This document shows, in pieces, positions 53,201 through 56,200 of a stretch of 64,000 nt of DNA. Numbering within the stretch: position 1 is the stretch's first letter; each line of letters begins with the position of its first letter. The position numbers are program-made. This stretch comes from Escherichia coli (GTDB lineage: Bacteria > Pseudomonadota > Gammaproteobacteria > Enterobacterales > Enterobacteriaceae): the NCBI RefSeq assembly GCF_024502345.1, contig NZ_JALDNN010000001.1, one strand, 5' to 3'.

Positions 53201-56200
53201 TTTGACCTTAATCATGTTTTTTGATAGATATTTTACGACTGAACATATCCGTCGTTTCCTCTGACTCGTGTCAGTCGGTCTCTGGTTGTATCCACGGACC
53301 GCACTCTTGACATAAGAGTGCGGTCCGTGGAAAACGGAGTTGAAAAAATGGTGTCTGAAAGAAGGTACCATCATTGTGATGACAAATACTTTGGCGTGGA
53401 TAATGTAATTAATTGCTGAAATTGACCGTATATGCGGTAAGACTCATATCAGTATCAGGTCCGGTTAATTGCTGATACTAATATAAACTTTTTACAAAAG
53501 GATGAATGCAGAAGGTTACTCTAATGGCCAGAGTGATGACAATGATGGTCAGACGTTGACCTGCAGAAACTGCATTTTAATTGGTCTATAAAGTCTGCAA
53601 GAGGAATCAGGGTCAGATCAGTGAGTCTTATCGCGGCCCGAAGCTATGACTGAAAGAAGGCTGGATACAGAATTGCAACAATTTGGCAATGTCAGAACAC
53701 AGAAGCTTTGCAAGCAGGTGAAAGGTTATGTCTAGCAAAAGGAGTATATCAGAATATATCTACTGATGTACAAAACACAACAATAGCTTCATGATATATA
53801 AATACGTGATGACGAGTGGTACTCCGCATGGTTATTTAACTTCTCAGCACCACTAATGATCCTGAGCAACTTCGTATTTGGGCCATTACCATGGAGTAGA
53901 AAGCTGTGTCTGAGAATGCAGAATTTGAGAAAAGAATTCGCTTTCTTGGAGAGCTTCTGAAAATGGCACGCTAACAACGTTTTGTTAAAAAATGTGAATC
54001 ACTTGCCGGGGTTGCATTTTCTATTCGAGGAGAATGTTGACGTAGATATTACAGAAATCTCAGCGCATCAGGATAAACTGCTACCTTAGGTCAACCACCA
54101 AAAGAAAATACAATACGTCCAGTTTGTATGCCTTTAATAACACATCTTCTAAATGTTGAAGAATTATCCCGCCTGCTGAAGAACGTTGCTCTGAGTGTGA
54201 TAAACCTTTTTATTCTTGATGATGTCAGCGAGAAGATGGAATATATCCCCGACTGGGTCGTGGTTACCCGGTTAAACATCTGGTGGCGCTAATAAATCTG
54301 GCAAGTCACATTCTGTTGAATGCTGTGACAGTGCCTTACCGAGAGAGCGAAATTGTGGTGTTCTAGTGCATAGTCGCCACCATTCCGGATAATTCTATTA
54401 CGTTGTTTTACAAGTTCTTTTACAGCGCAGATCTGTCGCTGACGTTGAATCAATAGCCTGGATTTCAGAACACAATGCCCGTTTGCTGGTTGTTCCGGCA
54501 GTAGCATTAATTCATTATCTGAATGAAATGTGTCAATCCACAGAAACCGCTGTCAATGACGCATTTTGTCGGACGTTAACACGAGAAAGTCTGGCTATTC
54601 CGTAATGCCATCTTATTTCGTAATGGATTGAGAATGCTGGATTTTTAATTATATTACGCGCAGTATTAATCGCGTAAATGTTTTGCGGTCAGCAACGGTG
54701 GGGGATCCATTGTTCTGTTCAATGAATACCATCATACATTTGAATCAGGAGTCGGTATGATGATTTTGGTGACGGGGGGCGCACGGAGCGGGAAGAGTCG
54801 CCACGCAGAGGCGCTTATTGGGGACTCTTCACAGGTTCTGTATATCGCTACCTCGCAAATCCTTGATGATGAGATGGCTGCACGGATAGAACATCATCGG
54901 CAAGGCCGCCCGGAGCACTGGCGCACAGTGGAGCGCTGGCAACATCTTGATGAATTAATTCATGCAGACATTAACCCGAATGAGGTTGTGTTGCTTGAAT
55001 GCGTTACCACAATGGTGACTAATCTGTTGTTTGATTATGGCGGCGATAAAGACCCTGATGAATGGGATTATCAGGCGATGGAACAGGCGATTAATGCTGA
55101 GATTCAGTCGTTGATTGCTGCCTGCCAACGTTGCCCCGCAAAGGTTGTATTAGTGACTAACGAAGTGGGAATGGGGATTGTGCCGGAGAGTCGTCTGGCA
55201 CGACATTTTCGTGATATTGCCGGGCGGGTAAATCAGCAGTTGGCCGCTGCGGCAAATGAAGTATGGCTGGTGGTTTCGGGTATTGGAGTAAAAATCAAAT
55301 GAGTAAATTATTTTGGGCGATGCTCTCATTTATTACGCGTCTGCCTGTACCGCGTCGCTGGTCCCAGGGACTGGATTTCGAGCATTATTCTCGCGGTATT
55401 ATTACTTTTCCTTTGATTGGATTATTGCTTGGCGCGATTAGCGGGCTGGTCTTCATGGTGCTGCAGGCATGGTGTGGCGCACCACTGGCGGCACTGTTTA
55501 GCGTACTTGTGCTGGTGCTGATGACCGGGGGATTCCATCTGGACGGCCTCGCTGATACCTGTGATGGCGTATTTTCTGCACGTAGCCGCGATCGCATGTT
55601 GGAAATCATGCGTGATAGCCGTTTAGGCACCCACGGCGGTCTGGCATTGATTTTTGTGGTACTGGCAAAGATTCTGGTGTTAAGCGAGTTGGCTCTGCGT
55701 GGCGAATCGATCCTTGCATCGCTGGCGGCAGCATGTGCGGTCAGCCGCGGGACTGACGCATTATTGATGTATCGTCATCGTTATGCGCGGGCAGAAGGGC
55801 TTGGCAATGTGTTCATTGGCAAAATTGATGGGCGACAAACCTGCGTCACACTCGGCTTAGCCGCTATTTTTGCTGCCGTATTATTGCCGGGTATGCATGG
55901 TGTGGCTGCTATGGTGGTGACGATGGTGGCGATTTTCATCCTCGGTCAGCTTCTCAAACGTACGCTGGGCGGGCAAACGGGCGATACGCTGGGAGCAGCC
56001 ATAGAGCTTGGTGAACTGGTCTTCCTGCTGGCACTGCTATAAAGAGACGTGAGATGCAAATACTTGCCGATTTACTGAATACGATCCCAGCCATCGATTC
56101 TACCGCTATGTCGCGTGCACAACGGCATATTGACGGGTTACTCAAACCTGTTGGTAGCCTGGGAAAGCTGGAGGTGCTTGCCATACAACTGGCAGGAATG

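What the first reader, a model, noticed from the sequence alone, without database searches (positions are those of the whole stretch)
53292..53330. Perfect 17 bp palindrome of unknown function
CCACGGACCGCACTCTT-GACAT-AAGAGTGCGGTCCGTGG is a perfect 39 bp dyad with no adjacent T-tract on either strand, so it is not a typical intrinsic terminator. It matches no REP, LexA, Fur or dif consensus I know. A smaller dyad (CTGAC-TCGT-GTCAG) lies about 30 bp upstream. It could be an operator for a lost regulator, a recombinase site or an IS terminal structure.
Basis: seen in the sequence. Interest (0 to 1): 0.45.

Follow-up and report, generated by a model that had tools for sequence, protein, structure and literature searches.

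The report
Hairpin relic in dead transposase gene
The perfect palindrome is real, but it sits at the broken edge of a decayed insertion-sequence transposase gene (E. coli pseudogene yoeH) and is most likely a mutational leftover whose only documented effect is to form an RNA hairpin where a junk transcript ends.

Summary
The dyad is real. It is slightly longer than reported: 18+5+18 bp at 53291-53331. It is the longest perfect inverted repeat in the window and far beyond chance.

The window is E. coli chromosome, in the CP4-44 / cobU junk region. The palindrome is single-copy. It occurs at this one locus in about 2,750 of 5,426 complete E. coli genomes, including K-12 (NC_000913.3 2068390-2068428).

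It overlaps the annotated pseudogene yoeH. I show that yoeH is the last ~55 codons plus the 3' non-coding end of an IS110-family element. Detectable IS110 homology starts at 53295-53301, inside the left arm. Intact relatives have no palindrome at that position.

The palindrome is no better conserved than its flanks. B2 strains carry a C>T that breaks it. IS2 and IS3 interrupt it in other strains.

Published Term-seq and RNAtag-seq tables for K-12 place strong RNA 3' ends at the base of this hairpin (window 53326/53327 and 53337), with no U-tract.

Best reading: a palindrome made by template switching or fold-back at a deletion junction. It now acts only as an exonuclease-blocking 3' stem-loop on a pseudogene transcript. 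It is not an operator, recombinase site, IS terminus or REP. Low interest.

The parts
53291..53331 (.). Perfect palindrome, 18-bp arms and 5-bp spacer (GACAT). The reported 39-bp core is 53292-53330.
   Evidence: equals K-12 NC_000913.3 2068390-2068428
53298..53468 (+). C-terminal remnant (about 55 codons, two in-frame stops) of an IS110-family transposase. K-12 pseudogene yoeH b4641 maps to 53301-53459. The stop codon is at 53466-53468.
   Evidence: tblastn with an intact IS110 transposase, residues 284-337, 48% identity, E 8e-9; 53-55% identity to plasmid copies and to the 3 hits with E-value up to 0.001 among 1.84 billion representatives; K-12 annotation
53469..53713 (+). Non-coding right end of the same IS110-family element, about 68% identical to the intact relative.
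53710..54270 (+). IS66-family tnpB 3' end and tnpC 5' remnant. It overlaps K-12 pseudogene yoeG, which maps to about 53828-54360. The IS110 element had inserted into this IS66 element.
53135..53164 (+). Sigma-70 promoter TTTTCA-18-TATAAT reading toward the palindrome. Published genomic SELEX assigns it to yoeH.
   Evidence: PMC3946193. The -10 is destroyed in the B2 allele.
53326..53338 (+). Published steady-state RNA 3' ends in K-12: 2068394/2068393 (inside the 3' arm) and 2068383/2068382 (6-7 nt after the stem).
   Evidence: PMC7815308 supp. file 1; PMC10687069 Supplementary Data 3 and another supplementary table (files 5 and 4 as held)
52552..53085 (-). 5' fragment of the TonB-dependent receptor gene (K-12 yoeA; intact, 715 aa, in B2 strains). 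Its ATG at 53085 lies 206 bp from the palindrome.
53121..53139 (.). Fur-box-like cluster (15/19 to consensus, with overlapping 14/19 matches) in the receptor promoter region.
53262..53275 (.). No evidence of significance.

Best explanation
The palindrome is a non-adaptive relic. An IS110-family element had inserted into an IS66 element upstream of the cob genes. A later deletion removed the left part of the IS66 element and about 85% of the IS110 element. This fused the upstream region of the TonB-dependent receptor gene (yoeA) to codon ~284 of the transposase.

The palindrome sits exactly on that junction. Its right arm and inner left arm read as transposase codons (T-A-L-L-T-*-E-C-G-P-W against AALLTKEPGPW). 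Intact relatives have no palindrome there.

The inferred origin is a one-step strand-switch event. The native short inverted repeat CTCTT..AAGAG (codons L-L-T-K-E) could have nucleated fold-back priming at the broken end, or template-switch 'correction' of a quasi-palindrome. Either would copy one arm from the other and make the repeat perfect.

Today its demonstrated effect is on RNA. Transcripts started at the sigma-70 promoter at 53135-53164 (the +-strand promoter assigned to yoeH; their start site was not mapped here) fold an 18-bp GC-rich hairpin. Their steady-state 3' ends pile up at its base, without a U-tract. This is the signature of a stem-loop that stops 3'-5' exonucleases after diffuse or Rho-dependent termination downstream.

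Shown: location, uniqueness, IS110 homology and its boundary, absence of the palindrome in relatives, the polymorphism and IS interruptions, and the RNA 3' ends (published data). Inferred: the strand-switch origin and the exonuclease-block mechanism.
For: - Identity of the locus: E. coli K-12 annotation places the palindrome in yoeH within CP4-44. One paper describes yoeH as a nonfunctional transposase pseudogene (PMC12363166).
- IS110 homology: tblastn E 8e-9 for residues 284-337. The DNA local alignment to the intact element starts at 53295 and runs to 53713.
- No homology further left: shuffle-controlled alignments of 53086-53297 are at background.
- Relatives lack the palindrome: in the intact relative's DNA at the homologous place, 5 of 17 positions are complementary by my own count on that sequence. 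All relatives read FIHGARAAALLTKEPGPW.
- Single locus: 2,755 of 5,426 genomes hold it, one locus each.
- Not specially conserved: 12 SNPs in 673 bp between the window and a B2 strain, one of them in the left arm at 53302 C>T.
- Dispensable: IS2 is inserted in the loop apex with TSD TGACA. In a whole lineage the IS3 end abuts 53299 and the left flank is replaced.
- RNA 3' ends: 2068394 with Term-seq counts of 122,542 and 280,326, classed 'orphan'. TRS peaks lie at 2068393 and 2068383, with hairpin dG -36.6 and max U-tract 2.
Against: - No ancestral allele (longer IS110 copy, or the junction without the left arm) was found, so the strand-switch origin is inferred from one relative that is only ~68% identical in DNA.
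- The left arm's 'ALL' codons match the transposase. This fits quasi-palindrome correction better than pure fold-back copying, so the two sub-models cannot be separated.
- The 3' end 6-7 nt after the stem could also come from weak non-canonical termination. The in-stem end could be an RNase III cut, since sense and antisense yoeH RNAs pair and the antisense is RNase III-sensitive (PMC6847712).
- The transcription start was not verified by 5'-end data here.
Confidence: 0.6

Rival explanations
1. A selected transcription stop or insulator. The hairpin would have been retained because it ends transcription between the IS debris and the receptor gene promoter, in one or both directions.
For: Strong RNA 3' ends lie at the hairpin on the + strand. 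An antisense yoeH RNA of about 150-200 nt ends in this neighbourhood by Rho action and extends to about 700 nt with bicyclomycin (PMC6847712). The hairpin is very stable on both strands.
Against: There is no U-tract on either strand. The dominant Term-seq end lies inside the stem, which fits trimming rather than termination. Nothing functional lies downstream on the + strand. The palindrome is not more conserved than its flanks and is imperfect in B2 strains, the ones with an intact receptor gene. The promoter feeding it is destroyed in B2. The published antisense termination is attributed to an RNAP aptamer plus Rho, not to a hairpin.
Confidence: 0.15
2. A native functional element of the parent IS110-family element, carried along in the remnant. 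Examples would be a transposase-binding or regulatory hairpin near the gene's 3' end, or part of its guide RNA region.
For: Both arms lie in IS110-derived sequence. IS110-family elements carry structured non-coding RNAs near their ends (my own knowledge, not tested here).
Against: The closest intact relatives have no inverted repeat at the homologous codons (the 5 of 17 figure is my own count). The palindrome needs a Pro-to-Cys codon change and non-homologous outer left-arm bases. Rfam finds nothing there. No closer relative exists among 1.84 billion representative proteins.
Confidence: 0.1
3. A DNA protein-binding site: an operator of a lost regulator, a recombinase or resolution site, or a partition site.
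For: Perfect dyad symmetry with an odd 5-bp spacer is typical of dimeric DNA binders. IbrB-like (ParB-nuclease-like) and IbrA genes lie beyond the receptor gene in strains with the full island.
Against: It is single-copy and inside a transposase pseudogene. It is no more conserved than its flanks, and the B2 allele breaks the symmetry. It is interrupted by IS2 and IS3 in natural strains. No regulator or recombinase gene is adjacent. It was absent from every other species representative in an exact-match scan with a 24-mer of the right arm and flank.
Confidence: 0.05
4. The abutted terminal inverted repeats of a tiny MITE or IS remnant, or a REP-type repeat.
For: The region is a graveyard of IS66, IS110, IS4, IS2, IS3 and IS5 fragments.
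Against: There are no other copies in the window, in E. coli genomes beyond this locus, or on plasmids or phages. There is no flanking target duplication. The arms translate as internal transposase codons.
Confidence: 0.03

Closest known systems
Exonuclease-protective 3' stem-loops of Rho-dependent or processed E. coli transcripts (Dar & Sorek 2018, PMC6061677)
   Same: It is an energetically stable stem-loop that is not followed by a U-rich tract. A precise steady-state RNA 3' end lies at or just after its base in vivo.
   Different: It lies in a pseudogene transcript with no gene to stabilise. The stem is unusually long and perfect (18 bp). Rho or exonuclease dependence of this particular end has not been tested.
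Quasipalindrome template-switch mutations, and snap-back (fold-back) inverted-duplication junctions in bacteria
   Same: A perfect short palindrome sits on a rearrangement junction, with a native short inverted repeat at its centre that could nucleate strand switching. Multi-base changes (Pro codon to TGC) make one arm the exact complement of the other.
   Different: This is a fossil inferred from comparison with a distant relative. No ancestral allele or experimental event was observed. Only 18 bp are duplicated.
IS110-family insertion sequence (transposase C-terminus plus right end); K-12 pseudogene yoeH
   Same: About 50% amino-acid identity over the last 55 codons and about 68% DNA identity over the 3' non-coding end, collinear with intact elements.
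   Different: Only the last ~420 bp survive. In-frame stops are present and the DEDD and Transposase_20 domains are absent. The palindrome itself is not a feature of intact family members.
Rho-independent (intrinsic) terminator
   Same: A GC-rich hairpin, with an RNA 3' end 6-7 nt after the stem in one data set.
   Different: There is no U-tract (AAAACGG follows the stem), and the dominant 3' end lies inside the stem.

Membership tests
Intrinsic terminator | GC-rich stem-loop | tested here: met
   18-bp perfect stem
Intrinsic terminator | U-tract immediately 3' of the stem | tested here: not met
   AAAACGGAG follows on the + strand and AUACAACC on the - strand. The scan does not call it. TRS table: max U-tract 2.
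Protective 3' stem-loop (Dar & Sorek type) | Stable stem-loop without a U-rich tail, and a steady-state RNA 3' end at its base | tested here: met
   Published 3' ends at K-12 2068394/93 and 2068383/82; dG -36.6 kcal/mol
Protective 3' stem-loop (Dar & Sorek type) | The upstream transcript is Rho-terminated downstream, and the end shifts in pnp/rnb mutants or with bicyclomycin | not testable with these tools
   Needs Term-seq or northern blots in mutants. Only the antisense RNA was tested with BCM in the literature.
IS110-family element (remnant) | Homology to an IS110-family transposase and its adjacent non-coding end, collinear | tested here: met
   tblastn E 8e-9; DNA alignment 53295-53713; the query protein carries PF01548 and PF02371
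IS110-family element (remnant) | Intact DEDD and Transposase_20 domains (a functional element) | tested here: not met
   No Pfam hit in the window translations; no homology left of 53295
IS terminal inverted repeats / MITE / REP | Multiple dispersed copies; arms at element termini; target-site duplication | tested here: not met
   Single locus in the window and in 5,426 E. coli genomes. No plasmid or phage copies apart from chromosome-like records. No flanking direct repeat.
Operator / recombinase site | Conservation above the flanks, symmetry preserved, cognate gene nearby | tested here: not met
   1 SNP in 41 bp against 12 in 673 bp. The B2 allele breaks the symmetry. IS2 and IS3 interrupt it. 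The neighbours are pseudogenes.
Operator / recombinase site | Specific protein binding | not testable with these tools
   Requires pull-down, EMSA or ChIP.
Template-switch / fold-back palindrome | Perfect inverted repeat on a rearrangement junction that is absent from the unrearranged homologue | tested here: met
   The boundary of IS110 homology at 53295-53301 coincides with the left arm. The relative has 5/17 complementarity by my own count on its sequence.
Template-switch / fold-back palindrome | A direct ancestral allele showing the before state | tested here: inconclusive
   None found in E. coli genomes, in species representatives or in protein space.

The most novel reading that the evidence does not exclude
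The hairpin is the 3' end of an abundant, unannotated RNA of about 155-165 nt. It would be transcribed divergently from the iron-regulated receptor gene, from a promoter that overlaps a Fur-box cluster. On this reading, IS110 debris has been exapted into a stable, possibly Fur-linked small RNA in non-B2 E. coli. At the DNA level, the palindrome would be a rare natural fossil of snap-back palindrome formation in a bacterial chromosome.
Probability: 0.12. Interest if true: 0.45.

Novelty: new member of a known kind. Interest (0 to 1): 0.2.

Why it matters
It matters little for biology at large. It explains an eye-catching perfect palindrome in the E. coli K-12 reference genome as IS debris rather than a missing regulatory or recombination site. 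It identifies pseudogene yoeH specifically as an IS110-family C-terminal and right-end remnant. It also links an 'orphan' high-count Term-seq 3' end to its cause.

It is a tidy natural example of two general points. Strand-switch mutagenesis can create perfect palindromes at rearrangement junctions. Any sufficiently stable hairpin will define an RNA 3' end whether or not it is selected. That is a caution for anyone reading Term-seq peaks or long dyads as functional elements.

Tried and rejected
- Rfam scan of 50500-56000 at E<=1: only a meaningless miRNA-shaped hit on the hairpin.
- Phage collection: no relevant match.
- Word-indexed protein search with the repaired 56-aa fragment: nothing.
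- Exhaustive HMMER search: 3 hits, all about 53% identical, so no closer parent element.
- Pfam on the window translations: no IS110 domain detected in the remnant, and no support for the weak 'RRFLxLVSVG' or 'CIHG' similarities left of the palindrome.
- Shuffle tests show those similarities are at background, so I dropped the idea that the pseudogene continues leftward across an internal deletion.
- Exact scan of 100,044 species representatives with the right arm plus flank: 0 hits.
- Scan with the receptor-promoter Fur-box 24-mer: hits only in unrelated taxa. No outgroup allele was obtained.
- A TTGACA hexamer in the palindrome centre has no usable -10, so it was rejected as a promoter.
- The genomic coordinates of iRAP#6850 and a mapped transcription start could not be retrieved from the held literature.

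Full report
**Observation.** The reported sequence is present at 53292-53330. One more complementary pair on each side makes it an 18+5+18 palindrome at 53291-53331.
- It is unique in the window, even when 3 mismatches are allowed.
- It is the longest perfect inverted repeat in the 64 kb. The next longest have 14-bp arms with A- or T-rich outer ends. I take those to be ordinary bidirectional terminators.
- Shuffles of the window never exceeded 12-bp arms.
- No T-run follows it on either strand, and the terminator scan does not call it.

**Where it is.** The window is E. coli chromosome, in the orientation yeeA - tmaR - [CP4-44 remnant] - cobU cobS cobT, the reverse of K-12.
- The palindrome is in K-12 MG1655 at NC_000913.3 2068390-2068428. 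That is inside the feature annotated as cryptic prophage CP4-44.
- It overlaps the 5' end of pseudogene yoeH (b4641), which corresponds to window 53301-53459.
- It lies 206 bp upstream of the ATG (53085, minus strand) of the TonB-dependent receptor gene yoeA. That gene is a fragment here and in K-12. It is intact (2,148 bp) in B2 strains such as ZH063.
- I believe yoeA is the heme receptor gene hma of uropathogenic strains. That identification is from memory and was not tested.
- A 59-bp query centred on the palindrome matches 2,755 of 5,426 complete E. coli genomes, always at this one locus. The '2 places' reported per genome are most likely the two strands of the palindrome (inferred, not checked).
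- It is absent from plasmids and phages apart from chromosome-like records.
- An exact scan with a 24-mer of the right arm and flank found it in none of 100,044 species representatives.

**What the surrounding DNA is.** Distant DNA searches against plasmids showed that 53713-54270 is about 70% identical to IS66-family elements, covering the end of tnpB and the start of tnpC.
- 53427-53713 is 68% identical to the 3' end of an IS110-family element. On plasmid CP057768.1 that element interrupts an IS66 copy.
- The transposase of that intact element carries PF01548 and PF02371. Its residues 284-337 align to window 53298-53459 in the yoeH frame, with 48% identity and E 8e-9:
  - window: TALLT\*ECGPWKTELKKWCLKEGTIIVMTNTLAWIM\*LIAEIDRICGKTHISIR
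  - intact element: AALLTKEPGPWITELKKRRPASVAIVAMANKLARTVWAIAAHGRKYDKNHVSIR
- So yoeH is the last ~55 codons of an IS110-family transposase, followed by the element's non-coding right end, which abuts IS66 debris.
- No closer relative exists. Plasmid copies are 53-55% identical, the word-indexed search found none, and an exhaustive search of 1.84 billion representatives returned three hits at 51-53%.

**The palindrome sits on the broken edge of that remnant.**
- The best DNA local alignment to the intact element begins at 53295, and the protein alignment begins at 53298-53301.
- Left of that point, shuffle-controlled alignments to the whole element are at background, and Pfam sees nothing.
- Everything to the left, down to the receptor gene's ATG at 53085, shows no IS110 homology. 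Its origin could not be traced, because no outgroup locus was obtained.
- The left edge of the palindrome (53291/53292) therefore coincides, within a few bases, with the deletion junction that truncated the IS110 element.
- Read in the transposase frame, the palindrome is ACC GCA CTC TTG ACA TAA GAG TGC GGT CCG TGG, or T A L L T \* E C G P W.
- The intact relative has GCA GCA TTA CTG ACC AAA GAA CCT GGG CCG TGG at the homologous place. By my own count on that sequence, only 5 of 17 positions are self-complementary.
- In the window, the parts of each arm that depart from the family sequence are exactly the complement of the family-like part of the other arm. These are the outer left arm CCACGGACC and the TGC that replaces a Pro codon.
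- The codons for L-L-T-K-E contain a native CTCTT..AAGAG mini-repeat at the centre.
- I read this pattern as a strand-switch product. It could be fold-back priming at the broken end, or template-switch 'perfection' of a quasi-palindrome, with the deletion endpoint attracted to it.
- This step is inference. No ancestral allele was found.

**Is it under selection?**
- Between the window and the B2 strain ZH063 there are 12 substitutions in 53088-53760. One of them, 53302 C>T, is in the left arm and breaks the DNA symmetry. The palindrome is therefore no better conserved than neutral flanks.
- The perfect form occurs in K-12, O157 and SMS-3-5, which are phylogroups A, E and F (assignments from my own knowledge). 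The perfect form is probably ancestral and the B2 change derived.
- The site is dispensable. In strain KE51, IS2 sits in the loop apex with a clean 5-bp duplication, TGACA.
- In a whole lineage the right end of IS3 abuts 53299 and the left flank is replaced by unrelated DNA.
- Other IS3-family junctions lie at 53342.

**What it does.** Published K-12 data answer this at the RNA level.
- Genomic SELEX assigned a constitutive sigma-70 promoter, TTTTCA-18-TATAAT, to yoeH (PMC3946193). It is the best promoter match in the scan, at 53135-53164 on the + strand.
- Term-seq lists an 'orphan' 3' end at 2068394 (minus strand, window 53326) with average counts of 122,542 and 280,326 in two conditions (PMC7815308 supp. 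1).
- The TRS re-analysis lists 3' termini at 2068393 and at 2068383/2068382 (window 53327 and 53337/53338). These are labelled 'Internal, yoeH', with this very hairpin (dG -36.6) and a maximum U-tract of 2 (PMC10687069).
- Ends at the base of, and just after, a stable stem with no U-tract match the class described by Dar & Sorek. There, stem-loops protect diffusely (Rho-) terminated transcripts from PNPase and RNase II (PMC6061677).
[quoted passage not shown] RNase III could therefore contribute to the in-stem end.
- The feeding promoter's -10 is TGTGAT in the B2 allele. This argues against a conserved function for the transcript.

**Verdict.**
- The finding is real but ordinary: a mutational fossil inside IS debris that happens to be a very good RNA hairpin.
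- It is not an operator, recombinase site, IS terminus, REP or canonical terminator.
- The element is already annotated (yoeH), and its RNA 3' end is already in public tables.
- What is added here is the IS110 assignment, the junction coincidence and the origin model.

Noticed in passing
window 53121-53139 (also 53127 and 53159 on the minus strand): This is the best Fur-box match in the whole window (15/19), with overlapping 14/19 matches. It lies between the receptor gene ATG (53085) and the divergent yoeH promoter, and it overlaps that promoter's -35. This is consistent with iron regulation of the receptor gene and possibly of the divergent transcript.
   Followed up: partly
window 53137, 53154, 53160, 53162 versus L005 (ZH063, B2): Four SNPs cluster in the yoeH-sense promoter. 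The B2 allele, from strains with an intact receptor gene, changes TATAAT to TGTGAT. The abundant hairpin-ended RNA seen in K-12 may therefore not be made in B2 strains.
   Followed up: partly
L004 (strain KE51) 1641-3030; L003 and L009 around 2990-3010: IS2 is inserted exactly in the apex of the palindrome loop with a 5-bp duplication, TGACA. In another lineage, the right end of IS3 abuts base 8 of the left arm. Other IS3-family junctions lie at window 53342. This is possibly a local hotspot for IS3-family insertion at or near the hairpin.
   Followed up: partly
window 51692-51723: TAAGCGTCAA-12 bp-TTGACGCTTA is a 10-bp perfect inverted repeat whose arms resemble the GTAAGCG-type termini of IS66-family elements. 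It lies next to the yeeP remnant. It could be abutted IS66 ends or a solo miniature element.
   Followed up: no
window 51225-51253: A 14+1+14 perfect palindrome, CAATGAGGGTTGCCCGGCAACCCTCATTG, lies just after tmaR (yeeX). It coincides with a published primary 3' end at K-12 2078989 that is not followed by a long U-tract. This is another hairpin-defined 3' end.
   Followed up: no
window 54265-54605: An IS4-family transposase fragment is followed by the 3' fragment of a cobalamin-biosynthesis gene directly upstream of cobU. It may mark where an ancestral cbi/cob operon was truncated (from memory; not tested).
   Followed up: no
window 51312-53085 versus K-12 L002 6636-16749: This strain lacks most of K-12's CP4-44 (flu, yeeR, yeeS, cbeA, cbtA and others) but keeps the yoeA-yoeH-yoeG side. 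This part of 'CP4-44' therefore behaves as a separate, older block of IS debris rather than as prophage.
   Followed up: no
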